A stretch of DNA of 14,265 bases from a virus (taxonomy: Duplodnaviria; Heunggongvirae; Uroviricota; Caudoviricetes). The stretch's first letter is position 1. Every line of letters starts with the position of its first letter. The notes under the pieces were generated by a model. The model was not told the DNA's origin. It worked only from the letters and a program-made list of their open reading frames with translations, and did not search any database. The stretch lies in the IMG/VR virus record IMGVR_UViG_2579778916_000002; one strand, 5' to 3'. Below are positions 268 through 14,265 of this stretch, piece by piece. The translations under genes and the position numbers were made by a program.

Positions 268-283
268 TCCTCACGCTCCATAA
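74..283 (+). other. Antisense shadow ORF, not a gene
   Basis: Lies entirely opposite the strongly supported J coding sequence. No independent support. Confidence 0.1.
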
Positions 284-308
284 ACGACAAAACCGCCCGC
301 AGGCGGTT
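281..308 (-). terminator. Terminator-like hairpin (AACCGCC / CGCA loop / GGCGGTT) followed on the minus strand by a U-rich tract, in the I-J spacer
   Basis: Read directly: 7-bp GC-rich stem at 291..308; minus-strand downstream sequence is TTTTGTCGTTTA. Lies between the I stop (328) and J start (267). Confidence 0.4.
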
Positions 309-327
309 TCACATAAAACATTTTGCA

Positions 328-969
328 TCAGCGACCAATCACCACAACCTGACCACCATCCCCTTCGTCTGCCGTGCTGATCTCCTGAGAAACCACGCGT
401 GACCCCACGCGCATTTCACCGTACAGAACAGGCAGAACATTGCCCTGGGCAACCATGTTATCCAGTGAAGAAAAATAGGTGTTCTGTTTGCCGTTATCCG
501 TTGTCTGTGTGCGGGGGGTTTTGGGTTTAGGGGCCAGCATCTGTGCAACACCGCCAAGCGTCATACTGGCACCGAGAGAAAACAGCAGATTACTCGCCAT
601 AATTCCTACCCCCGGCATCCATATAGCAACCGCCATAACAGCCGCCCCCAGCACAGCCTGAAACACACCGCCACTTTTGGCTCCCGCCAGACGCGGCACG
701 ATATGGATCACAGCACCATTTGCCAGCGGTTCATTAAGACGGGCTGATAATTCCGTTTCACCTGTATCACGCCCGGCAATGCGTACCTGATACCAGCCGT
801 CGCTCAGCTTCTGACGAAACGCCGGGATCTGCATGGCCAGCGCCCGGATGGCTTCGGCCCCCGTTTTCACACGCAGATCGATGCGGCGGCCAAATCGTTG
901 TAAATCCCCGTAAAGGCAGATGCGCGCCATGCCCGGTGACGCCAGAGGGAGTGTGTGCGTCGCTGCCAT
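328..969 (-). CDS. I: Tail assembly protein I
   Basis: 213-aa ORF with ATG start at 969. N-terminus MAATHTLPLASPGMARICLYGDLQRFGRRIDLRVKTGAEAIRALA and C-terminus NTYFSSLDNMVAQGNVLPVLYGEMRVGSRVVSQEISTADEGDGGQVVVIGR match lambda gpI as recalled. Overlaps the K 3' end by about 100 nt, as in lambda. Confidence 0.9.
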   Translation of the reverse strand: MAATHTLPLASPGMARICLYGDLQRFGRRIDLRVKTGAEAIRALAMQIPAFRQKLSDGWYQVRIAGRDTGETELSARLNEPLANGAVIHIVPRLAGAKSGGVFQAVLGAAVMAVAIWMPGVGIMASNLLFSLGASMTLGGVAQMLAPKPKTPRTQTTDNGKQNTYFSSLDNMVAQGNVLPVLYGEMRVGSRVVSQEISTADEGDGGQVVVIGR

Positions 970-1619
970 TTGTCGGTATACCTCTCTCGTTTGCTCAGTT
1001 GTTCAGGAATATGGTGCAGCAGCTCGCCGTCACCACAGTAAATGGCGGCATGATTCGGCACCGATGAACCAAAGCAGCACAGCAGCACATCGCCCGGTTG
1101 TGCTGATGACAACGGCACCTGATACAGCCCTGTGGCCTCCAGATTATCCAGATAGAGATTCTGACCGTGACGCCACCAGTCATCCCCGCGATGAAAATCC
1201 GGCATCTCAATTCCCGCCAGATGGTAAGCGTCCCGGAACAGCGTGTAACAGTCCGTCACCCCGTGCTCAAAGCGCCGCCCGGTGAGATGCGGCACACAGC
1301 GGAATTTATGAATCGCCCCCCGGCAGACCAGCCACCACGGCAAATCACTCTGCACCTGCAGCCGCCGGTCGGCCTCACTCAGCCAGGGCAGACCACCGGG
1401 GTGGCTGTGGACCAGCGCCACAATCTCTCCCTGCATTTCTGCACTCAGCCAGTCCTCCGGCGACATCCGGAAATACTCCTCCGGCTCACCGGATATATTC
1501 ACGCAGGGAAAATATCTTTCCCCCTCCGGTGTTCTCACCACGAAGCCGCACGACTCCGCTGGCGCACATCGCCGGGCGTGCGCCAGAATCGCTGATTCTG
1601 TCTCTGTCATGGGATTCAC
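867..1619 (-). CDS. K: Tail tip assembly protein K (MPN/JAMM plus NlpC/P60 domains)
   Basis: HSHPGG JAMM-like motif and a Cys/His NlpC/P60-like C-terminal half. Sits between L and I. Start is ambiguous: GTG at 1619 overlapping the L stop (GTGA), or ATG at 1610. Confidence 0.85.
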   Translation of the reverse strand: MNPMTETESAILAHARRCAPAESCGFVVRTPEGERYFPCVNISGEPEEYFRMSPEDWLSAEMQGEIVALVHSHPGGLPWLSEADRRLQVQSDLPWWLVCRGAIHKFRCVPHLTGRRFEHGVTDCYTLFRDAYHLAGIEMPDFHRGDDWWRHGQNLYLDNLEATGLYQVPLSSAQPGDVLLCCFGSSVPNHAAIYCGDGELLHHIPEQLSKRERYTDKWQRRTHSLWRHRAWRASAFTGIYNDLAAASICV

Positions 1620-2314
1620 TGCGAAAGTTTGTTAATGGAAAGGAAGCCGCCAAAGTTGCCGACGTTATTGCGAAACTTACAGCCGCTCAGGCATTTGCTG
1701 CATTTATCCTTCGTGATATCGGACGTCGGCTGATCATATTCATCCGCGACCGCCGGACCGTGATAACCGCACTCATCACCGCGATAGGTCCAGGTGCAGG
1801 TGTTGGCCAGCATGATACGTCCCGGAAAAACGGCACCGTCCGTTTCCGTCGGCGTGGACAGTACAAAAGAGGCACTCACCGCGCTCAGTTCACTGCACTG
1901 CTCGATGCGCCAGCGGCTGATCACCTCCTGCTCCGGATCGGCGTCACTGTTTCCGTTGACGAAGTTCACCGCATCCAGAAAACGGGCGTAAACCTTACGC
2001 CGGACCACCGTTCCTCCGACCAGACTCTGCAGGTCTTCCGCCATCCCGGTGACCATGCCGTGCAGGTTAGAAACCGTCAGTGTCGGACGGGCAGCACTGC
2101 CTTTGCCGTTCAGTTCAAATCCCGTCCCCTGAATGGGATACGCCTGATACTGTCGCCCCTGCCAGGTGACCGGCTCACCTTTATCGTTCTGCTCATTACA
2201 GAAAAAATAACGTTCACCACCGACCACTGTCAGATCGATTTCCCAGAGCACCACCTGGGCTGACTGAGTGAGGCGTGTCGTCTCATGATGTGTTTCCTGT
2301 GAAATATCCTGCAT
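1616..2314 (-). CDS. L: Tail tip protein L (Fe-S cluster-binding minor tail protein)
   Basis: 232 aa, near-identical to lambda gpL as recalled (MQDI..., C-terminal CSKCLSGCKFRNNVGNFGGFLSINKLSQ). ATG at 2314 preceded by GGAGG at 5-nt spacing. Confidence 0.93.
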   Translation of the reverse strand: MQDISQETHHETTRLTQSAQVVLWEIDLTVVGGERYFFCNEQNDKGEPVTWQGRQYQAYPIQGTGFELNGKGSAARPTLTVSNLHGMVTGMAEDLQSLVGGTVVRRKVYARFLDAVNFVNGNSDADPEQEVISRWRIEQCSELSAVSASFVLSTPTETDGAVFPGRIMLANTCTWTYRGDECGYHGPAVADEYDQPTSDITKDKCSKCLSGCKFRNNVGNFGGFLSINKLSQ

Positions 2315-2323
2315 CAGGGCCTC

Positions 2324-2653
2324 CTATGCCACGACCTGTTCAAAATCTGCCGTTATGGTTACCCACAGCGCCCCCACGCTTGCCGACCATTTACGACAAA
2401 CCACCCTGATCGGCTTCCAGTCATAAGGTGGCGTCCACTGAAATGCGCGGACGCCACCGTGCCGTTCCAGAAAGGCTTTTAAAGATGGGTGTTCACATTT
2501 ACGAACACGTATCGTCACGCTGTAAATCGACAACTGGTTATTCAGTCCCGCCGCACGACGCTGTTCATAACCATCGCCCAGCTTCACTGTCACCACTTTC
2601 GGCTCTGATACCACATTCATATCCGGGCGCACTTTCCAGTGAAACGTCTCCAT
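2324..2653 (-). CDS. M: Minor tail protein M
   Basis: 109 aa, the lambda gpM size, in the expected position. ATG at 2653 overlaps the H stop (TAATG), indicating translational coupling. Confidence 0.9.
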   Translation of the reverse strand: METFHWKVRPDMNVVSEPKVVTVKLGDGYEQRRAAGLNNQLSIYSVTIRVRKCEHPSLKAFLERHGGVRAFQWTPPYDWKPIRVVCRKWSASVGALWVTITADFEQVVA

Positions 2654-5600
2654 TACCGATATGCTCCACTTAACCGACCACCATCACGGGCCTGCTGTTG
2701 CATAAAGTCCGCTGCCGCTTTTTTCCCGAGGTCATAAACCACCTTCAGGGCAGCCGGACCTATCTGCCCGTTCGTGCCATCGTTATTGATCTCGATGTTG
2801 TACTGCGGGGCAAACATCGCCATACCTGAACCACCAATATCCGCCACAACCCCCAGCTTACCGTCAGCACCACGACGCAGTGGCAGAATGGCTTCAGGTC
2901 CCGCTTCCCCCATCACACCCGCGCCTTTTGCAAAAGCAAAAAACGTCGGACGGTTAACCACCGTGCCACTGTAACGACTCAAATCAGCAGACTGATAAAT
3001 CCCCCCATTGGCATTCAGGGAAAGGCTGCTGAGATCAAATCCCAGTACACTGCCAATCCCTTTTATCGATTTCATCATGGTTGCCTGCGCCAGGATTTTC
3101 GCCATATCTGACAGCACAGAAGAGGTGAAGGATTTGAAATTGAGTTTGCCGGTAGTGACAAAAGTTGCCAGGCCATTTCCCATGTTGCTGAAGGCTGACG
3201 AGAACACCTGTTCTGCTGTTCCTGCCGTATTATCTGCATCCACGGTAAAATTCTGAAATGCACGCAGGACTCCGTTTTTCCAGTTACCCTGCACAACTTC
3301 AAGCTGTTGCCAGTAACGGCGATTCTCATTCAGTTGTCGGTTCAGGCTCTCCGTCAGCGCCTGCTCGGCCTTTCTGTAGTCATCCGTGTTATATGTTCCT
3401 TTCTGCTCACTATCCCGCCTCAACTGCTCCAGCTGTTGCTGGTATTTCTGGCGAAGACTCAGTTGTACCTGATATCGCTGCCGCTGCTGATCACCCATAC
3501 CCACCGTGGCGATATCCAGGTCATGTTGCTGACGCTGAGCGCGCTCTTCTTCAGCCAGTTGACTGGTCAGCTGAATTGTTTTTTTCTTCAGCTCGTTGAG
3601 TGCCGTCTGTTTCTGAAGCTCCTGCTGTTTTACATCCAGCAGCGTCAGTGCCTGAATCAGTTCATCTTTACGGGCCAGCACACTCTTTTCATCTGCCGTC
3701 AGTTTTTTCCCGTCCAGGTCGCTGATGCGCTGCTGCAGAGCCAGAAGCTGTTTATGCGCTTCTGTCATCCTTTCCGTGGCAATGCCTGCTGACTGTCTGG
3801 CAGCAGCAATCTGTCCTTCCACCTGTGCCTGTTGCTGACTGTACTGCAGCAATAACCGGGTGGCCTCATCATTACGGGGTTCGCGTGTTTTTTTCTTACC
3901 GGATGCCAGGGCTTTCTCGTAACGTTCATTTTCACGTTGTATCGCCGCATCCCTGACAGCCTGATCGGCGTACTGCATGGAATTAATACGCGCAATTTCA
4001 CGCTGATGTCGTGCTGCTTCCGTTTCATTCATCCGGTTCAGTGCAGCATTTTCAGCATTACGGCGTTTCTGTTGCTCCTGATAATTCTGCTCTGCCTGCT
4101 CTTTTGCATCCTGCAAATCCTTCTGGCGTTTTTTCTTCTGAAGCTCGTTAAGACGCTGCTGATCGTACTCAACCTGAGAAGATGATGCCGTCCAGGGGAG
4201 TCTTTTCGCCCGCGACACTTTCTCCTGTAAAGCGGAAATCTGTTCATCCAGCGAGTCTTCACGACCAATATTCATGGCCGCATCCCAGAAACGACTCCAT
4301 AAATCAGACAGATACTTCAGCGTACTGCCCAGCGCATTGAGGTTATTATCAATATCCGCAGTACGCCGACCGGTTTCCTCTGCCAGTGCAGACATGGCTA
4401 TCCGTGCCGCATCACTGGACCGCCCCTGTTCCCCAAGGACGCGTATCTGCTCAAGCTGAGTGGCAGTAAGAAAATGCAGCTCATTGTCCAGAGCCTTCGC
4501 GGCATTTACAGGATCATCCTTCAGCCGCTTAAACTGATTTATGGTATCGCTGACCGACTGGCCAACCGATCGCTCCATCTGTGCGGCAGCTCTCGCCACC
4601 ATACCGATATCGTTTCCACGAAATGCACCACTCCCCACCACCTGAGCCAGCGCACCGGCTGCAGCATGTTGCGTGATACCATTCCCGGAAATAGCACGAC
4701 TGAGCGTCCACAGCTGCCCGGCAGTGACTCCGGCATAATGCCCCGTCAGCGACAACTGGCGGTTAAATTCTTCCCCCTCCTTCTGACCATCATACCAGGC
4801 TTTACCCAGACCATAGACGGCCGCGGCAATACCGCCAATAACCCCGCCCAGCATCATGCCTTTCGGTGACATCAGTGTGTCTATCCATCCGGCACGGTTA
4901 GCCAGCGTTATCCCGGATCCCCTCAGCGCACCTAAATTGCCGCGAGCCAGTTCACCTATCAGAACGCCTATCTCCTGGCGGGCCGCTGCACTTTTCAGAC
5001 CCAGCGAATGCGTGGCTTTTCCTGCCTGCTCCATTTTGCGGATATACACTTCTGCAGCACTGCTTACCCCCAGCTGGGCAGCCTTAGCACGAAGCAACTC
5101 AGAAGAAGAAAGATTCTGGCGGGTTGCCTGCTCTTTAAGCTGACGGATAAACGCCACTTTCTGTCGGGTAGCCTCTTCCTCAGCCTGTGTAAGAACACGA
5201 GTTTTCGCAGTAACCTCAGAAATCAGCGCCAGATAATCCTGCTGACCAATCCCGCCACTGTTTCTGGCCTGTCGGATCTGCTGCTGAATACGCTGTAATT
5301 CCTGCAGCCCCGCACTGGCCTGTTTCACACTGTCAATCTGACGATAAAACGCAGCAGCCGCTTTATCCTGAGCCTCCGCCAGAGCCATGGCCTGCGCCTG
5401 TTCCTCGCGCATTTTCTGGCTCAGTGCCTCCATGCGCTGGCGGGTTTTCTCCACCTCGCGGGCCATGCGTTCATGAGCCTGTGCGTTCTTCTCCACCGTC
5501 TGCGCATGGACGGATGCGGCTGTTGCAGCCGAAGAAGCCGCCTGCATTGTCTGCCGGGCGGCCTGAGTCTGACGCTCCATAAAACGCTGCATACGGGCAG

Positions 5601-5718
5601 AAGACCGTTCTGCATCGCTGGCTGCACCATTCAGAAGGTTTTTGATACGGGGAATTTCATTTTTAAACTCTGCCGCATCAATCCCCAAATCAATGACCAG
5701 GTTGGCTATCTGGTCCAT
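2653..5718 (-). CDS. H: Tail tape measure protein H (1021 aa from the ATG at 5718; the track ORF begins 10 codons upstream at a TTG)
   Basis: N-terminus MDQIANLVIDLGIDAAEF and C-terminus EINNDGTNGQIGPAALKVVYDLGKK...DGGRLSGAYR are collinear with lambda gpH as recalled. Long Q/A/E/R-rich coiled-coil centre. ATG 5718 is preceded by GGAGG at 8-nt spacing. Confidence 0.9.
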   Translation of the reverse strand: MDQIANLVIDLGIDAAEFKNEIPRIKNLLNGAASDAERSSARMQRFMERQTQAARQTMQAASSAATAASVHAQTVEKNAQAHERMAREVEKTRQRMEALSQKMREEQAQAMALAEAQDKAAAAFYRQIDSVKQASAGLQELQRIQQQIRQARNSGGIGQQDYLALISEVTAKTRVLTQAEEEATRQKVAFIRQLKEQATRQNLSSSELLRAKAAQLGVSSAAEVYIRKMEQAGKATHSLGLKSAAARQEIGVLIGELARGNLGALRGSGITLANRAGWIDTLMSPKGMMLGGVIGGIAAAVYGLGKAWYDGQKEGEEFNRQLSLTGHYAGVTAGQLWTLSRAISGNGITQHAAAGALAQVVGSGAFRGNDIGMVARAAAQMERSVGQSVSDTINQFKRLKDDPVNAAKALDNELHFLTATQLEQIRVLGEQGRSSDAARIAMSALAEETGRRTADIDNNLNALGSTLKYLSDLWSRFWDAAMNIGREDSLDEQISALQEKVSRAKRLPWTASSSQVEYDQQRLNELQKKKRQKDLQDAKEQAEQNYQEQQKRRNAENAALNRMNETEAARHQREIARINSMQYADQAVRDAAIQRENERYEKALASGKKKTREPRNDEATRLLLQYSQQQAQVEGQIAAARQSAGIATERMTEAHKQLLALQQRISDLDGKKLTADEKSVLARKDELIQALTLLDVKQQELQKQTALNELKKKTIQLTSQLAEEERAQRQQHDLDIATVGMGDQQRQRYQVQLSLRQKYQQQLEQLRRDSEQKGTYNTDDYRKAEQALTESLNRQLNENRRYWQQLEVVQGNWKNGVLRAFQNFTVDADNTAGTAEQVFSSAFSNMGNGLATFVTTGKLNFKSFTSSVLSDMAKILAQATMMKSIKGIGSVLGFDLSSLSLNANGGIYQSADLSRYSGTVVNRPTFFAFAKGAGVMGEAGPEAILPLRRGADGKLGVVADIGGSGMAMFAPQYNIEINNDGTNGQIGPAALKVVYDLGKKAAADFMQQQARDGGRLSGAYR

Positions 5719-6040
5719 AACGCACACCTCCGGAAATACCTTCCCCAAGATGCATCAGTTCTTCGTCCGTTCGCTCCGGTATCCCGTTCTCTTCCGGTAA
5801 AAGGCTGAAATCAGCCACCGCAGCATCACTGCTACCGGACACCATTCTCACGATCAATGCCTTCAGCGAGGCAAACTGCGCATCCATCCACACATCACTG
5901 AAGCTCTGCATCCGGAAATAATCGCCCCACTCACCAAGCTCAGTGGCCGACATTTCCGACAGCATCCGCCGCCAGTCTGCCCGCCGGAACTCCCGGGCAA
6001 GCCGCATGACAAACTGCATTTCCCGCGTCAGGACTTTTCC
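5690..6040 (-). CDS. T: Tail assembly chaperone T segment, expressed as a G-T fusion by -1 programmed frameshift near the G 3' end
   Basis: ORF in the -1 frame relative to G, open from just upstream of the G stop, with no SD or start of its own. Lambda G/T arrangement. Its 3' end overlaps the H start by 29 nt. Confidence 0.8.
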   Translation of the reverse strand, partial: GKVLTREMQFVMRLAREFRRADWRRMLSEMSATELGEWGDYFRMQSFSDVWMDAQFASLKALIVRMVSGSSDAAVADFSLLPEENGIPERTDEELMHLGEGISGGVRYGPDSQPGH

Positions 6041-6414
6041 GGCGTCAGCACCTCATGCTCCAAATCCCCGGCATTCTCAATGACTCCCATACCGCTCAGC
6101 GACAGAACCATCTCCGCCCCCGCTCCCAGGGCATCATACGACCATGTTGTAATAACGGATGCGCAAAGCGTCTCAACATCCTGAGACTGTTCCGCATTCC
6201 ACAGTGAGCGGGAAACCAGCCAGGCATTGATATCCATCCCCATCCGCAGAAAAGCAATCTGTCGTTCAGCCTCCGGCAGTTCTCCCTCTTCGGCATCAAA
6301 CTTTGCCGTTCGCTGCTGAACAAACGCCAGATATTCAATTCTCTGCAGCCCGGACAGCTCACTGAGCACCACGGACTGCTTTTCATAATTAAACGTGCCC
6401 TGTTTCAGAAACAT
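6028..6414 (-). CDS. G: Tail assembly chaperone G
   Basis: 128 aa starting MFLKQGTF... (lambda gpG begins MFLK...). GGTGGAG SD upstream of the tandem ATG ATG (6417/6414). Stop TGA at 6030..6028. Confidence 0.88.
   Translation of the reverse strand: MFLKQGTFNYEKQSVVLSELSGLQRIEYLAFVQQRTAKFDAEEGELPEAERQIAFLRMGMDINAWLVSRSLWNAEQSQDVETLCASVITTWSYDALGAGAEMVLSLSGMGVIENAGDLEHEVLTPEKS
6034..6040 (-). other. Putative -1 ribosomal slip site GGAAAAG (zero-frame codons CCG GAA AAG) for the G-T fusion
   Basis: Read from the minus strand. Lies inside the 25-nt window where the G frame and the T frame are both open. Contains the A AAG lysine slip motif. Confidence 0.6.
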
Positions 6415-6430
6415 CATGTTCTCCACCTGC

Positions 6431-6454
6431 AAAAAAGCCCCGGATAACCGGGGC
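6431..6454 (-). terminator. Intrinsic terminator-like hairpin between V and G (GCCCCGG / TTAT loop / CCGGGGC, then TTTTTT)
   Basis: Read directly: 7-bp GC stem at 6437..6454 plus a 6-nt T-run on the minus strand (6431..6436), sitting between the V stop (6475) and the G SD. Confidence 0.55.
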
Positions 6455-6474
6455 AAATGATGAGTATCGTCCTG

Positions 6475-7218
6475 TTAACCTGCGGCGCTGACAGCCACCG
6501 CAGCCACTGCCACAAAATCGCCGTCAGAAGTCATGCCCACAATGCTGACACTGCCCTGCTTCACGCCTTTCACCGTGGCCACAAGCCCGTTCAGGGTCAC
6601 CGTGGCAGTCTGTGGATCTGTCGAATGCACACTGATCGCTTTGTCACTGGCTCCGTCAGGTTTTACTGTAAAGGTCAGCGTGGTGGTTGCTCCCACTTTT
6701 ACACTGGCAGATGCCGGTGCCACCGTCAGCCCGGTAACGCTCACTGTTTCAGTGCCTTCCTCTGCCAGATACGGACGCCCCACACCGCTGATTTTCACTG
6801 TGCGGGTCATCACGTCTTTTGAGGCAATGGTTTTACCCAGTGAGCTCAGCCAGCCACGGAAAACATCAACAGTGCCGTTGGGATATTTGATACGAAACGC
6901 GCAGACTTCACCGGAGTCGAACAACTGAACCAGTTTTTTCTGCCCGCTGTCACCCGGACGCCAGGCCAGCGTCGCCGAAGTATCACCAACGGATTTCTGC
7001 CCCTGGGTTGTCGTTTTCCAGTCTGCATCTTCATCATCGAGATAAGTGTCATCTTCTGCATCAGCGGTCATTTCGCCAGGTTGCAGATCCTTCACCATCG
7101 CAAGACGCAGCCAGTCAGTGTCCGATAAAGGGTTCGCAAACGCATCGCCCTTGCCGGTGTACATCCAGAACGTCGTTCCCGCACCTTTCGTTTTTGCCAG
7201 TGGATTTGGTGTGGTCAT
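6475..7218 (-). CDS. V: Major tail tube protein V with C-terminal Ig-like (Big_2-type) domain
   Basis: 247 aa from ATG 7218, preceded by AGGAGG at 5-nt spacing. KGAGTT..., YLDDEDADW and NGTVDVFRGW motifs as in lambda gpV as recalled. C-terminal T/V/S-rich beta domain. Confidence 0.9.
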   Translation of the reverse strand: MTTPNPLAKTKGAGTTFWMYTGKGDAFANPLSDTDWLRLAMVKDLQPGEMTADAEDDTYLDDEDADWKTTTQGQKSVGDTSATLAWRPGDSGQKKLVQLFDSGEVCAFRIKYPNGTVDVFRGWLSSLGKTIASKDVMTRTVKISGVGRPYLAEEGTETVSVTGLTVAPASASVKVGATTTLTFTVKPDGASDKAISVHSTDPQTATVTLNGLVATVKGVKQGSVSIVGMTSDGDFVAVAAVAVSAAG

Positions 7219-7229
7219 TGCCACCTCCT

Positions 7230-7631
7230 TTAATTCGTGTACGTGATCTGGTACGTGATTTCCGCCATCGCCCAGGTGGCCATCTCATTATCACGTTGAT
7301 AGTTAAAACCGAGAGGGATCAGGGTGTCGATGAGTCCGGAAAGTGCCGGTATATCATTCAGGGCCGGGAAAATGGTGCTCTCCATCCACATATCCAGCTC
7401 TGAATCCGGTGCCTGTGCCCGGATGAAGACAGCAATATGCAGAACAGCCTGCCAGTCATCTTCATCCGTCATTTTTCCGGTGTACTGAGCATCACTCAGC
7501 CACACCGCCACGGCAGGCAGTTCCTGCGCATCAATAAATGCCGGAAGCCCGTCAAAAAACGTGGCGCTGTCTCCACACTGTTCCCGAAGGCGTGCCAGTA
7601 CGGCCTGGCGGATTTGTGTATGTCGGTTCAT
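7230..7631 (-). CDS. U: Tail terminator protein U
   Basis: MNRHTQIRQAVLARL...ATFFDG...PAVAV resembles lambda gpU (MKHTELRAAVL...) as recalled. ATG 7631 overlaps the Z stop (ATGA). The track ORF starts 4 codons upstream at ATG 7643. Confidence 0.85.
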   Translation of the reverse strand: MNRHTQIRQAVLARLREQCGDSATFFDGLPAFIDAQELPAVAVWLSDAQYTGKMTDEDDWQAVLHIAVFIRAQAPDSELDMWMESTIFPALNDIPALSGLIDTLIPLGFNYQRDNEMATWAMAEITYQITYTN

Positions 7632-8206
7632 CGGGTCAGCCATAACCTCAGTTGTTGTTTCAGTGCATACCCCAGCTGTTTCGGCATTTCCGCAGCAATA
7701 ATGCGGTCGCGGGCATCTTCAAATGCCTGTGTCAGCGGTCCGGACAGCGGGACTTTCACCACATCAATGGGGTAACGATTTTTGCCATCAATACGCCGCA
7801 TCACATGCCAGCGACCATTCGCCAGTTGCTGAATAAACGCATCCCGGAAAAGATATTTACCCACCTTCAGCACACTGCCACGGTACTGCAGTTTTCCACC
7901 ACGCCGGGCCAGTCTGACCCGGGCTGTCCCCAGCTTAATAGCGGGCAGATTGCCCCGGTTAACGCGGATCCTGGCCGTCATTTTTCCTGACGGACTGGCT
8001 TTAAACACCCGGACACGCTGACGTACCAGTTTCAGGGGGATCCCTTTCACCTGGTTATCTCCCGCAACGGTATTCCCGGCAACCTGCCGGGTGGCGACCG
8101 AGACCGCTTTCTGTGCCACACGGTTTATCGCCCATGCGCTGGCCTGTGGCACCATACGGGTATCAAGGCTGTTCAGATTACGGATGGCATTCTCAAGCCC
8201 CTTCAT
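7628..8206 (-). CDS. Z: Tail completion protein Z
   Basis: 192 aa, the lambda gpZ size and position. N-terminus MKGLENAIRNLNSL. ATG 8206 preceded by AGAGG at 6-nt spacing. Confidence 0.85.
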   Translation of the reverse strand: MKGLENAIRNLNSLDTRMVPQASAWAINRVAQKAVSVATRQVAGNTVAGDNQVKGIPLKLVRQRVRVFKASPSGKMTARIRVNRGNLPAIKLGTARVRLARRGGKLQYRGSVLKVGKYLFRDAFIQQLANGRWHVMRRIDGKNRYPIDVVKVPLSGPLTQAFEDARDRIIAAEMPKQLGYALKQQLRLWLTR

Positions 8207-8217
8207 CCCACACCTCT

Positions 8218-8493
8218 TTACTCAATAAAGATCATTGGCTTACCGTTAAAACGTTCATGCCGTGTGACCGTCCATTGTTGTCCGTCATAAACAACGCGAT
8301 CCCCGCGCCGTGGGCGGTATCCCGAAGAAAACACCACCAGAGAGACCGCAGGTCCGGACAGAGCATTCAGCTCTGCCAGTGTTTCTCCCGGGATCACAGT
8401 CATATCGACATCATTAATCGAGGCTGTCTTTCCCATCTTTCTAACCGTGATAGCATCCATACGCGCTGCCAGCCGGGAAAAGGGATCAGACAT
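8218..8493 (-). CDS. Head-tail joining protein, FII-like (Gifsy-2-type family)
   Basis: 91 aa immediately upstream of Z. C-terminal RRGDRVVYDGQQWTV resembles the lambda gpFII RRGD region. ATG 8493 overlaps the stop of the upstream gene. Confidence 0.6.
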   Translation of the reverse strand: MSDPFSRLAARMDAITVRKMGKTASINDVDMTVIPGETLAELNALSGPAVSLVVFSSGYRPRRGDRVVYDGQQWTVTRHERFNGKPMIFIE

Positions 8494-8809
8494 TGAGTTT
8501 TACCGGCACTTCTTCTGCACTGGTTCCGGCATCTGCCCAGACAACCCCGACCAGCGGATCAGAGCCGCTGTTAGTCAGCTGAACTTTTCCGGACTTCAGA
8601 TAAACCTTCTTACCCGTTTTCATGTCATCCGTTTTCAGCTTAGGCAGCATAAACACACCTTCGGTCATGCCGTCGCCTGTTTCACCCTGTGGAATATCGG
8701 TCAGCGCCACCGCAAAAACATCGCCCACCTGCACCAGATCTCCGCTGCTGATGGCTGCACTGGCAACAATCGCCACCGTTTTTCCTTCTTCTACAAAATT
8801 CTTTGCCAT
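8486..8809 (-). CDS. Small head-associated protein, DUF2190-like (possible decoration/head-completion protein)
   Basis: 107 aa from ATG 8809, with GGAG at 6-nt spacing. Position directly after the major capsid gene. Family assignment is from memory of the sequence type, not a search. Confidence 0.5.
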   Translation of the reverse strand: MAKNFVEEGKTVAIVASAAISSGDLVQVGDVFAVALTDIPQGETGDGMTEGVFMLPKLKTDDMKTGKKVYLKSGKVQLTNSGSDPLVGVVWADAGTSAEEVPVKLNV

Positions 8810-8852
8810 AACTGTCTCCGCACAGCCCCGTTCAGGGGCTGATTTCAGGTAC

Positions 8853-8871
8853 AAAAAAAGCCCTTACGGGC
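8853..8871 (-). terminator. Short terminator-like hairpin (GCCC / GTAA loop / GGGC) plus 7-nt U-tract immediately downstream of the capsid gene
   Basis: Read directly. A second 7-bp hairpin without a U-tract follows at 8823..8841 (CAGCCCC / TGAAC loop / GGGGCTG on the minus strand). Confidence 0.4.
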
Positions 8872-8895
8872 CATCAGAGTTGTTGTCTGCGACGT

Positions 8896-10854
8896 TTACG
8901 CCGTACATTTCACCAGACCGCGGTGATCAACTGGCGCGACACCGGCGTCAATACGCACTTTCGTTGTCACGCCATCCACACTGAAGCCCTCCATCTGATC
9001 AATATATGGCGTATCCACACCGTTGAGATAAGCCACTTCAATCGTATCGGAGCCTTTTGACGCAGCCAGGTAGAAGGTGGTCTGGCTGTTATCATCAAGA
9101 CGAGGCTCTGCAATAACGGTCGCAAAATCTTTCACCGGGTTAATAATACCGGCGTTAATGTCAGCCCCCTTGACACTTGAGGAGCGAATGACCTGGTTAG
9201 CAACAGACTCCATCGCCGTCGGTACCAGTACGAACGCAGGACGAATATTCAGATGACGCTCCCCCTCTTTCTGAACGCGCATCAACTGGCGGGCTTTATC
9301 CAGCGATGCCACGTCCATTGCAGCGCTCTCCAGTACGTTTGCATGTTTCGCTTTATCGAACAGACTTACATTATCTGTGGAGATTTTCGGGTTAGACGTC
9401 AGAATGGCATAAACCAGATCGGCAATAGTGGATTTCGCCGCACGGCCCAGTTTCATCGGGACATCGGTCAGCATATTCAGATCATCATTGATAATGGCCT
9501 GACGGGTGATACTGAACAGCTCGCCATAGGTCGCCAGTGCAATAGTGGCCTGTTTATCTCCGGTGGTGACGTATTTATATTCCGCCCCTTCACGCACCTG
9601 ACGCAGAGCACTGAAGCCCCCCATACCCACACGATGGGCAATTTTAAAATCAGACAACTGACCTTTCCGCGTCCACTGTTCATAGGTTTCAGGGGCATCT
9701 TCCCAGCCCTGCAGAATGGCTTTGTTCGCAACATCCAGCAGAATATTACCGAAGTCAGACGTACTGTGTGTGAACGCCGCACCGACCATCTGCATCGGGT
9801 TATAACCGGAAACCCCAATACCCCGTTCAGTTAGTGACATACGGGCATATTCACGCAGGGTCATCCCGTTGTAGACATTATCACGTTCGGTTTTTTCAAA
9901 TCCGGCACGCGCCATCAGCGCCTGGCGGATCCCGTCCCCCACAAAATTACCGTTACCGGCATAAATATGAGCCGGGGTATTTTTATTGGATGGCGTGGAC
10001 TCGCGCCCCATCTCGTTCAACAGCTTTTCACGGGCCTGCTCCAGCGAACATTCAGGATCGGCAAGACACTGGGCCTGCAGCATCTGATAACGCCCGCCAA
10101 ACATGGCAAACAGATCATTAATACCGTTTACACGCGCTTTTTGCTCTGCCAGTACCTGCGCACGGATACTGTTTTCATCCACCACGGGTGCTGCTGCCTG
10201 CACTGGCGTCCGGGAGGCTGCAGGTTCATCATCCTGTACGCGTGGAGCACTGTTGCGTGGCGGAGTAATCATGTTTCGAATGGATTCCGGCATCTTTTTA
10301 AATTCCTCTGTACGTTTTGACTGAATACATGCCATTGCCTTAACGGCTGGTGTCACCTGATCAGCAAATCCCTGTGCCAGACATTCGGCACCGGACATCC
10401 AGGTCTCATCCGCCAGCATGGCAGCAATTTCATCGGTGGTTTTCCCGGTTTTCTGTGCATAAGCGGGTAACAGAACCGCCTCAACTTTATCGAGCAGGTC
10501 GGCATAGGTGCGCATGTCCTCCGCATCACCGCCCGTAAAGCCAAATGGTTTATGAATCATCATGAAGGAGTTTTCCGGCATAATGATCGGGTTTCCCACC
10601 ATCGCAATGACCGACGCCATTGACGCCGCCACACCGTCGACATAAACGGTAATGGACGCACCATGTGTTTTCAGTGCATTAAAAATGGCGATGCCTTCAA
10701 AGACATCGCCACCCGGTGAATTAATATGGAGATTAATGTGGGTGATATCGCCCAGTGCATTCAGATCACTGATAAACTGCTTCGCTGTAACACCCCAGAA
10801 ACCAATCTCGTCATAAATATAAATATCCGCGTCACTCTGGTGACCTGCCTGCAT
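8896..10854 (-). CDS. Tripartite head gene: ClpP-like prohead protease, scaffold-like linker and HK97-fold major capsid protein in one ORF
   Basis: 652 aa from ATG 10854 with no internal stop. N-terminal ClpP-like motifs (GVAASMASV serine, MMIHKP histidine), a coiled-coil-like middle, and a C-terminal ~350-aa capsid-like domain. Matches the Gifsy-2 tripartite capsid gene architecture. The track's 87-codon upstream extension overlaps the portal 3' end and is rejected. Confidence 0.8.
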   Translation of the reverse strand: MQAGHQSDADIYIYDEIGFWGVTAKQFISDLNALGDITHINLHINSPGGDVFEGIAIFNALKTHGASITVYVDGVAASMASVIAMVGNPIIMPENSFMMIHKPFGFTGGDAEDMRTYADLLDKVEAVLLPAYAQKTGKTTDEIAAMLADETWMSGAECLAQGFADQVTPAVKAMACIQSKRTEEFKKMPESIRNMITPPRNSAPRVQDDEPAASRTPVQAAAPVVDENSIRAQVLAEQKARVNGINDLFAMFGGRYQMLQAQCLADPECSLEQAREKLLNEMGRESTPSNKNTPAHIYAGNGNFVGDGIRQALMARAGFEKTERDNVYNGMTLREYARMSLTERGIGVSGYNPMQMVGAAFTHSTSDFGNILLDVANKAILQGWEDAPETYEQWTRKGQLSDFKIAHRVGMGGFSALRQVREGAEYKYVTTGDKQATIALATYGELFSITRQAIINDDLNMLTDVPMKLGRAAKSTIADLVYAILTSNPKISTDNVSLFDKAKHANVLESAAMDVASLDKARQLMRVQKEGERHLNIRPAFVLVPTAMESVANQVIRSSSVKGADINAGIINPVKDFATVIAEPRLDDNSQTTFYLAASKGSDTIEVAYLNGVDTPYIDQMEGFSVDGVTTKVRIDAGVAPVDHRGLVKCTA

Positions 10855-10867
10855 CCTGAACCAGGAA

Positions 10868-11362
10868 TTATTCTTCGGACTGGTCGTCGGTGTGCTGCGG
10901 CTCCTGTCGTTTCGTTGCGGCACTGCTGCCTCCTTTATCACTGGCCGGATCGGTATCAAATACCAGATCCAGCTTGCGGTTTTCATCAATTTCGGCCTTG
11001 CGCCGACGTTTGACATCATCCGGATTACGACCACCTGCACGTACCCAGTCTGATTCTGTCGCCGCTCCACCACGAATCTGAATTTTCCAGGCCTCAGCCT
11101 CCTTAACAGGGTCAATCCACGGCATCACCGGTCCGGAATACACCGCGGTATACAGTGAAGATCGGTCCAGATCGCGGGGTAGCCTGATAACACCGGATGC
11201 CACAGCCTGTTTCAGCCAGGCACGGTACATCGGGCGGGTGACGGCACCAATAAACCAGTCCTGCAGGATCAGGTAGCCATCAGTAGATTCAACCAGCTCC
11301 TGACGCTGGGCGCTGTAAGTGCCGTTATAGTTGCGCGCTGTACTGGAAAAACTCAGACGACT
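10868..11362 (-). pseudogene. Portal protein 3' fragment (164 codons plus stop), cut at the repeat junction with no start codon in this copy
   Basis: Frame is open from the junction to TAA at 10868. Acidic, charged C-terminal tail (...RRRKAEIDENRKLDLVFDTDPASDKGGSSAATKRQEPQHTDDQSEE) and position just upstream of the protease, typical of lambda-like portals. Confidence 0.6.
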
Positions 11363-11541
11363 GCCTGCATTGTCTGCCGGGCGGCCTGAGTCTGACGCTC
11401 CATAAAACGCTGCATACGGGCAGAAGACCGTTCTGCATCGCTGGCTGCACCATTCAGAAGGTTTTTGATACGGGGAATTTCATTTTTAAACTCTGCCGCA
11501 TCAATCCCCAAATCAATGACCAGGTTGGCTATCTGGTCCAT
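11353..11541 (-). pseudogene. Tape measure H 5' stub: 60 N-terminal codons of H, then Val-Val-stop across the junction
   Basis: Identical to the first 60 codons of H (copy 1) up to the junction at 11363. Diverges after 11362 and hits TGA at 11355..11353. Confidence 0.85.
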
Positions 11542-11863
11542 AACGCACACCTCCGGAAATACCTTCCCCAAGATGCATCAGTTCTTCGTCCGTTCGCTCC
11601 GGTATCCCGTTCTCTTCCGGTAAAAGGCTGAAATCAGCCACCGCAGCATCACTGCTACCGGACACCATTCTCACGATCAATGCCTTCAGCGAGGCAAACT
11701 GCGCATCCATCCACACATCACTGAAGCTCTGCATCCGGAAATAATCGCCCCACTCACCAAGCTCAGTGGCCGACATTTCCGACAGCATCCGCCGCCAGTC
11801 TGCCCGCCGGAACTCCCGGGCAAGCCGCATGACAAACTGCATTTCCCGCGTCAGGACTTTTCC
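11513..11863 (-). CDS. T: Tail assembly chaperone T frameshift segment (copy 2)
   Basis: Identical to 5690..6040. Confidence 0.75.
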   Translation of the reverse strand, partial: GKVLTREMQFVMRLAREFRRADWRRMLSEMSATELGEWGDYFRMQSFSDVWMDAQFASLKALIVRMVSGSSDAAVADFSLLPEENGIPERTDEELMHLGEGISGGVRYGPDSQPGH

Positions 11864-12237
11864 GGCGTCAGCACCTCATGCTCCAAATCCCCGGCATTCT
11901 CAATGACTCCCATACCGCTCAGCGACAGAACCATCTCCGCCCCCGCTCCCAGGGCATCATACGACCATGTTGTAATAACGGATGCGCAAAGCGTCTCAAC
12001 ATCCTGAGACTGTTCCGCATTCCACAGTGAGCGGGAAACCAGCCAGGCATTGATATCCATCCCCATCCGCAGAAAAGCAATCTGTCGTTCAGCCTCCGGC
12101 AGTTCTCCCTCTTCGGCATCAAACTTTGCCGTTCGCTGCTGAACAAACGCCAGATATTCAATTCTCTGCAGCCCGGACAGCTCACTGAGCACCACGGACT
12201 GCTTTTCATAATTAAACGTGCCCTGTTTCAGAAACAT
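11851..12237 (-). CDS. G: Tail assembly chaperone G (copy 2)
   Basis: Identical to 6028..6414. Confidence 0.85.
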   Translation of the reverse strand: MFLKQGTFNYEKQSVVLSELSGLQRIEYLAFVQQRTAKFDAEEGELPEAERQIAFLRMGMDINAWLVSRSLWNAEQSQDVETLCASVITTWSYDALGAGAEMVLSLSGMGVIENAGDLEHEVLTPEKS

Positions 12238-12253
12238 CATGTTCTCCACCTGC

Positions 12254-12277
12254 AAAAAAGCCCCGGATAACCGGGGC
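12254..12277 (-). terminator. V-G intergenic terminator-like hairpin (copy 2)
   Basis: Identical to 6431..6454. Confidence 0.5.
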
Positions 12278-12297
12278 AAATGATGAGTATCGTCCTG

Positions 12298-13041
12298 TTA
12301 ACCTGCGGCGCTGACAGCCACCGCAGCCACTGCCACAAAATCGCCGTCAGAAGTCATGCCCACAATGCTGACACTGCCCTGCTTCACGCCTTTCACCGTG
12401 GCCACAAGCCCGTTCAGGGTCACCGTGGCAGTCTGTGGATCTGTCGAATGCACACTGATCGCTTTGTCACTGGCTCCGTCAGGTTTTACTGTAAAGGTCA
12501 GCGTGGTGGTTGCTCCCACTTTTACACTGGCAGATGCCGGTGCCACCGTCAGCCCGGTAACGCTCACTGTTTCAGTGCCTTCCTCTGCCAGATACGGACG
12601 CCCCACACCGCTGATTTTCACTGTGCGGGTCATCACGTCTTTTGAGGCAATGGTTTTACCCAGTGAGCTCAGCCAGCCACGGAAAACATCAACAGTGCCG
12701 TTGGGATATTTGATACGAAACGCGCAGACTTCACCGGAGTCGAACAACTGAACCAGTTTTTTCTGCCCGCTGTCACCCGGACGCCAGGCCAGCGTCGCCG
12801 AAGTATCACCAACGGATTTCTGCCCCTGGGTTGTCGTTTTCCAGTCTGCATCTTCATCATCGAGATAAGTGTCATCTTCTGCATCAGCGGTCATTTCGCC
12901 AGGTTGCAGATCCTTCACCATCGCAAGACGCAGCCAGTCAGTGTCCGATAAAGGGTTCGCAAACGCATCGCCCTTGCCGGTGTACATCCAGAACGTCGTT
13001 CCCGCACCTTTCGTTTTTGCCAGTGGATTTGGTGTGGTCAT
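12298..13041 (-). CDS. V: Major tail tube protein V (copy 2)
   Basis: Identical to 6475..7218. Confidence 0.88.
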   Translation of the reverse strand: MTTPNPLAKTKGAGTTFWMYTGKGDAFANPLSDTDWLRLAMVKDLQPGEMTADAEDDTYLDDEDADWKTTTQGQKSVGDTSATLAWRPGDSGQKKLVQLFDSGEVCAFRIKYPNGTVDVFRGWLSSLGKTIASKDVMTRTVKISGVGRPYLAEEGTETVSVTGLTVAPASASVKVGATTTLTFTVKPDGASDKAISVHSTDPQTATVTLNGLVATVKGVKQGSVSIVGMTSDGDFVAVAAVAVSAAG

Positions 13042-13052
13042 TGCCACCTCCT

Positions 13053-13454
13053 TTAATTCGTGTACGTGATCTGGTACGTGATTTCCGCCATCGCCCAGGT
13101 GGCCATCTCATTATCACGTTGATAGTTAAAACCGAGAGGGATCAGGGTGTCGATGAGTCCGGAAAGTGCCGGTATATCATTCAGGGCCGGGAAAATGGTG
13201 CTCTCCATCCACATATCCAGCTCTGAATCCGGTGCCTGTGCCCGGATGAAGACAGCAATATGCAGAACAGCCTGCCAGTCATCTTCATCCGTCATTTTTC
13301 CGGTGTACTGAGCATCACTCAGCCACACCGCCACGGCAGGCAGTTCCTGCGCATCAATAAATGCCGGAAGCCCGTCAAAAAACGTGGCGCTGTCTCCACA
13401 CTGTTCCCGAAGGCGTGCCAGTACGGCCTGGCGGATTTGTGTATGTCGGTTCAT
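13053..13454 (-). CDS. U: Tail terminator protein U (copy 2)
   Basis: Identical to 7230..7631. Confidence 0.83.
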   Translation of the reverse strand: MNRHTQIRQAVLARLREQCGDSATFFDGLPAFIDAQELPAVAVWLSDAQYTGKMTDEDDWQAVLHIAVFIRAQAPDSELDMWMESTIFPALNDIPALSGLIDTLIPLGFNYQRDNEMATWAMAEITYQITYTN

Positions 13455-14029
13455 CGGGTCAGCCATAACCTCAGTTGTTGTTTCAGTGCATACCCCAGCT
13501 GTTTCGGCATTTCCGCAGCAATAATGCGGTCGCGGGCATCTTCAAATGCCTGTGTCAGCGGTCCGGACAGCGGGACTTTCACCACATCAATGGGGTAACG
13601 ATTTTTGCCATCAATACGCCGCATCACATGCCAGCGACCATTCGCCAGTTGCTGAATAAACGCATCCCGGAAAAGATATTTACCCACCTTCAGCACACTG
13701 CCACGGTACTGCAGTTTTCCACCACGCCGGGCCAGTCTGACCCGGGCTGTCCCCAGCTTAATAGCGGGCAGATTGCCCCGGTTAACGCGGATCCTGGCCG
13801 TCATTTTTCCTGACGGACTGGCTTTAAACACCCGGACACGCTGACGTACCAGTTTCAGGGGGATCCCTTTCACCTGGTTATCTCCCGCAACGGTATTCCC
13901 GGCAACCTGCCGGGTGGCGACCGAGACCGCTTTCTGTGCCACACGGTTTATCGCCCATGCGCTGGCCTGTGGCACCATACGGGTATCAAGGCTGTTCAGA
14001 TTACGGATGGCATTCTCAAGCCCCTTCAT
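13451..14029 (-). CDS. Z: Tail completion protein Z (copy 2)
   Basis: Identical to 7628..8206. Confidence 0.83.
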   Translation of the reverse strand: MKGLENAIRNLNSLDTRMVPQASAWAINRVAQKAVSVATRQVAGNTVAGDNQVKGIPLKLVRQRVRVFKASPSGKMTARIRVNRGNLPAIKLGTARVRLARRGGKLQYRGSVLKVGKYLFRDAFIQQLANGRWHVMRRIDGKNRYPIDVVKVPLSGPLTQAFEDARDRIIAAEMPKQLGYALKQQLRLWLTR

Positions 14030-14040
14030 CCCACACCTCT

Positions 14041-14265
14041 TTACTCAATAAAGATCATTGGCTTACCGTTAAAACGTTCATGCCGTGTGACCGTCCATTG
14101 TTGTCCGTCATAAACAACGCGATCCCCGCGCCGTGGGCGGTATCCCGAAGAAAACACCACCAGAGAGACCGCAGGTCCGGACAGAGCATTCAGCTCTGCC
14201 AGTGTTTCTCCCGGGATCACAGTCATATCGACATCATTAATCGAGGCTGTCTTTCCCATCTTTCT
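14041..14265 (-). CDS. FII-like head-tail joining protein (copy 2), 3' part only; start lies beyond the window end
   Basis: Identical to 8218..8442 of copy 1. The window ends 51 nt before the expected ATG. Confidence 0.55.
   Translation of the reverse strand, partial: RKMGKTASINDVDMTVIPGETLAELNALSGPAVSLVVFSSGYRPRRGDRVVYDGQQWTVTRHERFNGKPMIFIE

What the first reader, a model, noticed from the sequence alone, without database searches (positions are those of the whole stretch)
5540..14265. Perfect direct repeat of at least 2.9 kb with 5,823-bp period spanning the head-tail genes
Positions 5540..8442 recur exactly at 11363..14265, and the second copy is cut by the window end. If the identity continues, the repeat unit is 5540..11362 (portal 3' part, protease/capsid, DUF2190, FII-like, Z, U, V, G, T, H 5' 180 bp), present twice in tandem. 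That would add 5.8 kb to a cos-packaged lambdoid genome, which may exceed head capacity, and such a duplication would be recombinationally unstable. Zero divergence between copies means a very recent event, population heterogeneity or an assembly artefact.
Basis: seen in the sequence. Interest (0 to 1): 0.65.

Follow-up and report, generated by a model that had tools for sequence, protein, structure and literature searches.

The report
False prophage duplication from draft assembly
The exact 2.9-kb repeat is really in the sequence, but it is almost certainly an assembly artefact in a gapped short-read draft of an E. coli genome that holds two nearly identical versions of a lambda-like prophage, not a true tandem duplication of the head and tail genes.

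Summary
In detail: window 5540-8442 equals 11363-14265 exactly (2,903 nt, period 5,823). The genes lie on the minus strand. In gene order they read FII'-Z-U-V-G-T-H'(179 nt) | 'portal(495 nt)-ClpP/capsid-DUF2190-FII-Z-U-V-G-T-H-M-L-K-I-J'.

I found the source. The window is one whole contig of draft scaffold KK736383.1 (GCA_000692575.1), with runs of N on both sides. The "second copy" is therefore cut by a scaffold gap, and a full second unit was never assembled.

The H'|'portal junction is absent from 5,426 complete E. coli genomes, from the phage and plasmid collections, and from three contig collections. About 1,800 complete genomes carry the same module in single copy; the closest differ at two sites.

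The public record has its only ambiguous base 7 nt from the junction. Every contig end and the join sit at or within 7 nt of sites that vary between two allele types of this prophage. Independent Logan assemblies with the same very rare H allele run unbranched through the H breakpoint. They differ from the window at one base, the one next to the repeat's end. A second back-joined segment follows the next gap.

Verdict: false duplication built from two near-identical haplotypes (confidence about 0.8). Interest is low.

The parts
5540..8442 (.). Copy 1 of the exact 2,903-nt repeat. On the minus strand it holds H 5' 179 nt, T, G, V, U, Z and the FII-like 3' part, all inside the complete head-tail module.
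   Evidence: identity; gene content.
11363..14265 (.). Copy 2 of the repeat, the 'extra piece'. In gene order it begins the contig right after a 2,752-N scaffold gap and ends at the H'|'portal join. It equals L001 14928-17830.
11355..11371 (-). Join between H nt 179 and portal nt 1015 (11362|11363). Gene-strand sequence is ACAA[N/T]GCAGGC|AGTCGTCTGA. Exact microhomology to the L001 portal is only GGC (3 nt), or TGCrGGC (7 nt with 1 mismatch). H' is out of frame with portal and stops after 2 codons.
   Evidence: The join is absent from all collections searched.
11369..11369 (.). The only ambiguous base of the contig in the public record (N in L004 at 4350). It falls on SNP site s2 (gene strand: C in the L001 type, T in window copy 1 and the L003 type).
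5539..5546 (-). SNP sites s3 (5539) and s2 (5546) in the intact H. These are the only two sites where the window differs from the closest complete genomes over 11.4 kb. They bracket the H breakpoint at +1 and -7.
   Evidence: The allele combination occurs in 1 of 5,426 genomes.
8443..8443 (-). SNP site s1, the base immediately beyond the end of the repeat. On the gene strand it is T in the window and L001, and C in both Logan contigs and L003. It is the single difference found between the Logan contigs and the window across the ten 1-kb bins compared.
10868..11362 (-). Portal gene 3' fragment (last 164 codons plus stop), with no start of its own. A 120-aa ORF (10868-11230) is called inside it.
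8896..10923 (-). ClpP-like prohead protease / major capsid fusion protein (675 aa).
   Evidence: RefSeq name; PF00574, PF25209.
8218..8809 (-). DUF2190/'cement' protein (8486-8809) and FII-like head-tail joining protein (8218-8493).
   Evidence: PF09956, PF13856.
5690..8206 (-). Tail genes Z (7628-8206), U (7230-7631), V (6475-7218), G (6028-6414) and T (5690-6019), copy 1.
   Evidence: PF06763, PF06141, PF16461, PF06894, PF06223.
2653..5718 (-). Intact tape measure protein H (1,021 aa). This exact protein is on record in only 5 contigs of the whole gene collection.
1..2653 (-). M (2324-2653), L (1616-2314), K (867-1610), I (328-930) and J 5' 267 nt (1-267). The contig ends at a 2,412-N gap, and the next base (L001 23370) is a T/C polymorphic site.
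11353..14265 (-). Genes of the extra piece: H' (62 aa, 11353-11541), T (11513-11842), G (11851-12237), V (12298-13041), U (13053-13454), Z (13451-14029) and the FII-like 3' part (14041-14265).

Best explanation
The repeat is a false duplication made by a short-read draft assembler. The sequenced sample holds two nearly identical versions ('haplotypes') of an mEp460-like lambdoid head-tail module. These are most likely two prophage copies in one genome, or less likely a mixed culture. They differ only by sparse SNPs, about one per 2-3 kb. In the assembly graph each SNP is a bubble, so contigs end there. The 2.9-kb stretch between two neighbouring SNP sites (L001 14928-17823, plus the first SNP arm) was laid down a second time in the scaffold and abutted to the contig that starts just after another SNP site in portal. 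This produced the apparent H'|'portal tandem-duplication junction. Shown here: the window is one contig between N gaps; the junction is unique to this record; contig ends coincide with variable sites; there is an ambiguous base at the junction; independent contigs do not branch there. Inferred: that there are two haplotypes in the reads, and the exact software step that made the join without a long overlap. That step may be merging of blunt, pair-linked contig ends on a few shared bases, or gap patching.
For: (1) The window equals the reverse complement of KK736383.1 (GCA_000692575.1), L004 1454-15718, with one base different. It is bounded by N runs of 2,752 and 2,412.
(2) A 600-nt junction probe is contiguous in 0 of 5,426 complete E. 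coli genomes, 0 of 50,697 phage records and 0 of 72,556 plasmids. The 32-mer junction is absent from the viral, genome and metagenome contig collections. Meanwhile 1,802 genomes hold the module in single copy at 80% coverage or more, and the closest differ at two sites.
(3) The only ambiguous base in the 14,265-nt contig lies 7 nt from the junction, on a known SNP site.
(4) All contig boundaries fall on sites polymorphic between L001-type and L003-type alleles. The terL contig ends at L001 10029, and 10030 is A/G. The contig starts at 14928, and 14927 is T/C. The H breakpoint lies in the 6 nt between SNPs 17824 and 17831. The portal side starts 7 nt after SNP 12001. The contig ends at 23369, and 23370 is T/C. 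The background L001/L003 difference is only about 0.6%.
(5) The exact H protein is on record in only 5 contigs: this scaffold and 4 Logan contigs. The two Logan contigs shown (separate assemblies of SRR1187738 and SRR1187819) carry the rare T..G allele and run straight through H nt 179. By a base-composition checksum in ten 1-kb bins they match the window in nine. The one difference found (read directly in L005; L006 has the same bin composition) is the base adjacent to the repeat's end.
(6) The next contig of the same scaffold opens with a second back-joined segment. It is a J C-terminus-Lom-tail-fibre piece only 90-95% identical to its cognate, fused to J with 3-nt microhomology. That join is also not contiguous in any complete genome among the hits listed.
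(7) False duplications in drafts are typically associated with assembly gaps, erroneous k-mers and incorrect gap filling (PMC9516828; PMC2864568).
Against: The junction has only 3-7 nt of similarity between the two sides. A pure de Bruijn or overlap walk cannot create such a join, so I cannot name the software step that did. The assembler and library types are not known to me. I could not prove that the Logan runs are the read sets of this assembly; this is inferred from the rarity of the allele and from the SNP falling exactly at the contig end. Variation at portal site 12001, terL 10030 and J 23370 within this sample is inferred from other genomes, not observed in the sample. If the ambiguous base means C/T, it shows a real second copy of the H 5' region in the sample, which a true duplication would also give.
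Confidence: 0.8

Rival explanations
1. The junction sequence exists in some sequenced molecules but not in the bulk genome. It could be a chimeric library molecule. For example, the circularisation joint of a ~5.8-kb mate-pair or jumping-library fragment has exactly this 'downstream end joined to upstream end' topology; a PCR template-switch chimera is another option. It could also be a rare subpopulation variant, such as a duplication or rearranged concatemer in spontaneously induced cells. The assembler used such reads to patch contigs that had been broken at SNP bubbles.
For: A join with only 3-7 nt of similarity is easier to explain if some read carried it. The two back-joins span 5,823 and about 1,863 nt, which is within mate-pair insert ranges. 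The Logan contigs do not branch at the junction, as expected if its coverage is low.
Against: Blunt-ligation joints should fall at random positions, not exactly between two SNP sites and 7 nt after another. Library type is unknown. The second join connects two different alleles, which a single circularised molecule would not do unless the assembler switched haplotype just after it.
Confidence: 0.1
2. A genuine clonal tandem duplication of the 5,823-bp portal'-to-H' segment in a resident prophage. It would arise by microhomology-mediated illegitimate recombination or template switching, or equivalently by a ~39-kb deletion between H of the first and portal of the second prophage of a tandem dilysogen. 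It would give a second capsid-to-T gene set, a 62-aa H stub and a start-less portal fragment.
For: The contig as deposited contains the junction. The short microhomology is typical of illegitimate recombination. The ambiguous base at a C/T site suggests two copies of the H 5' region in the sample. An upstream gap in a repeat would be expected for a 5.8-kb exact repeat assembled from short reads.
Against: Only half of a second unit is assembled. Both shown 10-20-kb Logan contigs with this H allele are unbranched at H nt 179, which is impossible for a 1:1 junction if they are the same strain, and two further similar contigs were not shown. Biology has no reason to place breakpoints and contig ends on SNP sites. 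The copies would differ at s1 and s2, so the event would not be 'very recent', yet a 5.8-kb tandem repeat is recombinationally unstable. A second similar join sits after the next gap, between 90%-identical alleles. The junction is absent from 5,426 complete genomes.
Confidence: 0.08

Closest known systems
False (under-collapsed, 'heterotype') duplications in draft genome assemblies (Kelley and Salzberg 2010, PMC2864568; Ko et al. 2022, PMC9516828)
   Same: Two slightly different versions of one region are both placed in a scaffold, next to each other. The structure sits beside an assembly gap, with consensus trouble at the boundary and unsupported joining sequence.
   Different: The 'haplotypes' here are probably two near-identical prophage copies in a haploid bacterium (or a mixed culture), not two chromosomes of a diploid. 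One copy is only a 2.9-kb inter-SNP segment, and it is joined without Ns.
Tandem-duplication derivatives of phage lambda, formed by illegitimate recombination with little or no homology and unstable by homologous recombination (classical lambda genetics; from my own knowledge, not checked here)
   Same: The junction topology (a downstream gene joined to an upstream gene on the same strand), the few-base microhomology and the kilobase-scale unit.
   Different: Those were shown physically, by density, heteroduplex mapping and segregation. This one exists only in a gapped draft contig and fails the independent checks.
mEp460-like lambdoid prophages of E. coli (mEp460, Ayreon, cdtI; the prophage next to truncated ydfJ in strain 13KWH46)
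   Same: The head-tail module is 97-98.5% identical to these phages and differs at two sites from many chromosomal prophages. Gene order is the same: portal, ClpP/capsid fusion, DUF2190, FII, Z, U, V, G, T, H, M, L, K, I, J.
   Different: All of them have the module once. None has the H'|'portal join.
Genomes with several lambdoid prophages sharing long near-identical segments, which break short-read assemblies (for example O157 Sakai/EDL933; from my own knowledge)
   Same: Matching genomes have a median of 3 and up to 14 places similar to this window. The scaffold also contains a second, 90-95% identical J-Lom allele.
   Different: I did not see the second copy's own chromosomal location in this assembly.

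Membership tests
Genuine tandem duplication | Two complete head-to-tail copies of the unit | tested here: not met
   Only 2,903 of 5,823 nt of a second copy exist. Beyond window 14265 the record has 2,752 Ns and then the terL 5' part.
Genuine tandem duplication | Novel junction confirmed by independent data | tested here: not met
   The junction is absent from all collections searched. Logan contigs with the same rare H allele pass through H nt 179 unbranched. Caveat: that these runs come from the same strain is inferred, not proven.
Genuine tandem duplication | Breakpoints unrelated to assembly-graph features | tested here: not met
   The H breakpoint lies between two SNPs 7 nt apart. The copy starts 1 nt after a SNP. 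The portal side starts 7 nt after a SNP.
Genuine tandem duplication | Twofold read depth over the unit, and junction-spanning reads or long reads | not testable with these tools
   No access to reads.
False duplication in a draft assembly | Duplicated block abuts an assembly gap | tested here: met
   Copy 2 begins at the gap edge. A second case follows the next gap.
False duplication in a draft assembly | Consensus uncertainty or unsupported sequence at the boundary | tested here: met
   The single ambiguous base of the contig is 7 nt from the join.
False duplication in a draft assembly | Block ends coincide with sites that vary between the two collapsed versions | tested here: met
   s1 is observed as a Logan-versus-NCBI difference. 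s2 is N in the record. The sites at 10030, 12001 and 23370 are variable between L001 and L003 but were not directly seen to vary in this sample.
False duplication in a draft assembly | Single-copy-level depth on each of the two copies, and discordant read pairs | not testable with these tools
   No access to reads.
mEp460-like lambdoid head-tail module | Lambda-type gene order with a ClpP/capsid fusion, and high nucleotide identity to the named phages | tested here: met
   97.9% identity to mEp460 and 98.5% to vB_EcoS-569R4. RefSeq names and Pfam families agree.

The most novel reading that the evidence does not exclude
The junction is real. The strain would carry a 5.8-kb tandem duplication of the capsid-to-tail-chaperone genes inside a resident lambdoid prophage (or a deletion derivative of a tandem double lysogen). 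That would give about a 50-kb genome at the edge of packaging capacity, with the copies already marked by two SNPs.
Probability: 0.08. Interest if true: 0.3.

Novelty: not a real feature. Interest (0 to 1): 0.07.

Why it matters
The main value is as a caution. The duplicated structural genes, the 62-aa H stub and the 120-aa portal ORF annotated on this scaffold should not be counted as gene gains or as evidence of prophage rearrangement. The case also gives a practical diagnostic for false duplications in bacterial drafts. Check whether the repeat ends, contig ends and ambiguous bases fall on sites that vary between paralogous prophage alleles, and compare with an independent assembly of the same reads. 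What is probably real and mildly useful is that the sample contains two versions of this prophage module that differ by only a few SNPs, either as two prophage copies or as a mixed culture.

Tried and rejected
1. Gap arithmetic. The N gap is 2,752 nt. A single-copy layout needs 1,978 nt and a full tandem duplication needs 4,898 nt. I rejected this as evidence, because read pairs mapping into a duplicated block would bias the gap estimate in the same way under both models.

2. The N as a 1-nt gap placeholder between two contigs. Rejected, because the 6 nt after the N continue the H sequence exactly.

3. The two SNPs at the junction as mutations made by the rearrangement itself. Rejected, because the same T..G allele occurs in an unrelated prophage without any duplication (L003).

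4. The extra piece as a copy from a second prophage that shares only FII..H'. Rejected, because the Logan contigs would then branch at its ends.

5. Mate-pair circularisation joint. Kept only as a minor rival (see the rival explanations).

6. Look-ups of the 62-aa and 72-aa chimeric H' products found nothing. This is uninformative, because the record's product contains an X from the N.

7. Literature searches for the assembly, scaffold or run accessions found nothing. The assembler, the library types and the link between the SRA runs and the assembly therefore remain unverified.

I used base-composition bins as a checksum instead.

9. L003 and L005 never appeared in the Python sandbox, so those comparisons were done with get_sequence and DNA alignment.
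Full report
**Observation.** Window 5540-8442 is identical to 11363-14265 over 2,903 nt with no mismatch. The match stops abruptly on the left (spacing 5,823). The repeat is therefore real in the sequence as given.

**Anatomy.** All genes are on the minus strand. In gene order the contig reads:
- FII-like 3' part, Z, U, V, G, T and the first 179 nt of the tape-measure gene H;
- then directly the last 495 nt of the portal gene;
- then ClpP-protease/capsid fusion, DUF2190, FII-like, Z, U, V, G, T, full H, M, L, K, I and the first 267 nt of J.

The join (window 11362|11363) reads ...CAGACAATGCAGGC|AGTCGTCTGA on the gene strand. H' leaves its frame and stops after two codons, giving a 62-aa product. 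The portal fragment has no start of its own. Similarity between the two parental sequences at the join is only GGC (3 nt exact), or TGCrGGC (7 nt with one mismatch).

**What the module is.** It is the late-operon head-tail module of an mEp460-like lambdoid prophage.
- It is 97.9% identical to phage mEp460 and 98.5% identical to vB_EcoS-569R4.
- 1,802 of 5,426 complete E. coli genomes hold it at 80% coverage or more.
- In the closest genomes it differs at only two sites, always in a single copy. An example is strain 13KWH46, where it lies next to a truncated ydfJ.
- Against that reference (L001), the reverse-complemented window maps as 1-2903 = L001 14928-17830 and 2904-14265 = L001 12008-23369.

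**The junction is unique to this record.**
- A 600-nt probe across it is contiguous in 0 of 5,426 complete E. coli genomes, 0 of 50,697 phage records and 0 of 72,556 plasmid records.
- The exact 32-mer is absent from the IMG/VR, GTDB-representative and JGI metagenome contig collections.

**Source of the window.** Looking up the exact H protein found the source. The window is the reverse complement of NCBI draft scaffold KK736383.1 (GCA_000692575.1), locus L004 1454-15718.
- It is one entire contig, bounded by N runs of 2,752 nt on the side of window 14265 and 2,412 nt on the side of window 1.
- Beyond the first gap lies the 5' 1,344 nt of the large terminase gene, ending at L001 10029.
A complete second unit was never assembled.
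- The record differs from the window at one base. Window 11369, 7 nt from the join in copy 2, is an ambiguous base in the record. It is the only one in the contig.

**Boundaries coincide with variable sites.** Over 11.4 kb the window differs from the closest complete genomes at only two sites, window 5546 and 5539. These are 7 nt before and 1 nt after the H breakpoint. Both are natural alleles, seen together in an unrelated prophage (L003) that has no duplication. Other boundaries show the same pattern:

| Boundary | Position (L001 coordinates) | Neighbouring variable site |
|---|---|---|
| terL contig end | 10029 | 10030 is A (L001) / G (L003) |
| Portal side of the join | starts at 12008 | 12001 is T (L001) / G (L003), 7 nt upstream |
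| Start of the window contig (gene order) | 14928 | 14927 is T (window, L001) / C (Logan, L003) |
| H side of the join | within the 6-nt GCAGGC | between 17824 (C/T, N in the record) and 17831 (A/G) |
| End of the window contig | 23369 | 23370 is T (L001, Logan) / C (L003) |

L001 and L003 differ at only about 0.6% of positions in the 2.9 kb aligned. Three boundaries exactly adjacent to such sites, plus a join bracketed by them, is far beyond chance. Assembly graphs break at SNP bubbles. Recombination has no reason to.

**Independent assemblies.** The exact 1,021-aa H protein is on record in only five contigs of the whole collection: this scaffold and four Logan contigs of 10-20 kb.
- The two shown, from SRR1187738 and SRR1187819, carry the rare T..G allele. 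They run from mid-capsid to J nt ~1,400 straight through H nt 179.
- By base composition in ten 1-kb bins they match each other in all ten bins and the window in nine.
- The one difference I located is at window 8443, the base immediately beyond the end of the repeated block (read directly in L005, inferred for L006 from its identical bin composition).
- This coincidence argues that these runs come from the same sample, and that the site is variable within that sample.
- A k-mer assembly cannot pass unbranched through a junction present at the same depth as the normal path. The H'|'portal join is therefore absent or rare in those reads.

**A second case in the same scaffold.** The contig after the next gap opens with a J C-terminus-Lom-tail-fibre N-terminus segment. 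That segment is only 90-95% identical to its counterpart 1.86 kb further on. It is fused to cognate J with about 3 nt of microhomology. That join is also not contiguous in the complete genomes listed. This is an allele from another prophage placed in series before the cognate allele. It is the pattern described for false duplications in drafts, which go with assembly gaps, erroneous k-mers and incorrect gap filling (PMC9516828; PMC2864568).

**Interpretation.** The reads contain two nearly identical versions of this module, one of the common L001 type and one carrying L003-like alleles at a few sites. The assembler broke contigs at the SNP bubbles. It then placed the 2.9-kb inter-bubble segment twice and joined it to the contig that starts after the portal SNP. 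Contig 'copy 1' is itself mis-phased (T at 14927 with T..G in H).

I have not established which software step made a join with so little overlap. Possible steps are merging of pair-linked blunt contig ends on a few shared bases, gap patching, or use of a chimeric read. These are inferences. The assembler and library types are not known to me.

**Rivals.**
- A chimeric or rare molecule that supplied the junction sequence (confidence 0.10).
- A genuine clonal tandem duplication, or equivalently a deletion within a tandem dilysogen (confidence 0.08).

The second rival is contradicted by the unbranched Logan contigs, the SNP-anchored boundaries, the partial second copy and the second join. It also has to explain divergence between the copies of a recombinationally unstable repeat.

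**Packaging.** mEp460 is 44,510 bp. Adding 5,823 bp gives 50.3 kb, close to the upper limit known for lambda (my own knowledge, not tested).

**Verdict.** The repeat is correctly observed, but it is an artefact of a gapped short-read draft and has low interest. The only probable biology is the presence of two near-identical copies of the prophage module in the sample.

Noticed in passing
L004 18131-21567 (same scaffold, next contig after the 2,412-N gap); join at L004 19962|19963: A second back-joined segment. A J C-terminus-Lom-tail-fibre N-terminus piece, 90-95% identical to the cognate copy 1.86 kb downstream, is fused to J (L001 25645) with about 3 nt of microhomology (GGA). The join is not contiguous in the complete E. 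coli genomes listed. It is probably the allele of another prophage placed in tandem by the assembler.
   Followed up: partly
   Followed up: yes
window 2653-5718 (H): This exact tape-measure protein (Thr to Met from the C>T change at s2, window 5546) is extremely rare. It is on record in 5 contigs of the whole gene collection. The 121-nt DNA around the two SNPs is exact in only 1 of 5,426 complete genomes (CUVET20-1667, a different prophage next to tRNA-Pro).
   Followed up: yes
L002 12760-15965 (NZ_CP158429.1; also GF8, GF75, GF161 and M24FEP): Several genomes with a near-identical copy of this module have an ISEc22 (IS66-family) insertion that splits the K (C40 peptidase) tail gene.
   Followed up: no
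L007-L009 and L011-L014 (mainly >5.4-Mb E. coli chromosomes, including AE005174.2): The 120-aa ORF inside the portal 3' end is called as a separate gene in about 4,235 blocks of the collection. In those prophages the portal is split into a 350-374-aa part and a 120-aa part, which suggests a frameshifted or interrupted portal in a widespread prophage lineage.
   Followed up: no
Plasmid collection hits CP088498.1 (16.8 kb), NZ_CP019281.1 (33.8 kb) and NZ_CP148393.1 (44.6 kb): Small records filed as plasmids consist of, or contain, this phage's portal and tail genes. They may be phage genomes or assembly fragments deposited as plasmids.
   Followed up: no
L005 position 1 and L006 position 1 (about L001 13368/13360, mid-capsid gene); L005 end at J nt ~1,400: Both Logan contigs start within 8 nt of each other inside the capsid gene and end inside J. 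This suggests the limits of the stretch over which the two haplotypes, or a third prophage, are near-identical. Upstream of this point (capsid 5', portal, terL) the versions probably diverge more.
   Followed up: no
window 1464-1490, 5909-5935 and 11732-11758: A 27-nt direct repeat (81% identity) between the K/L region and the T gene. It is probably chance.
   Followed up: no
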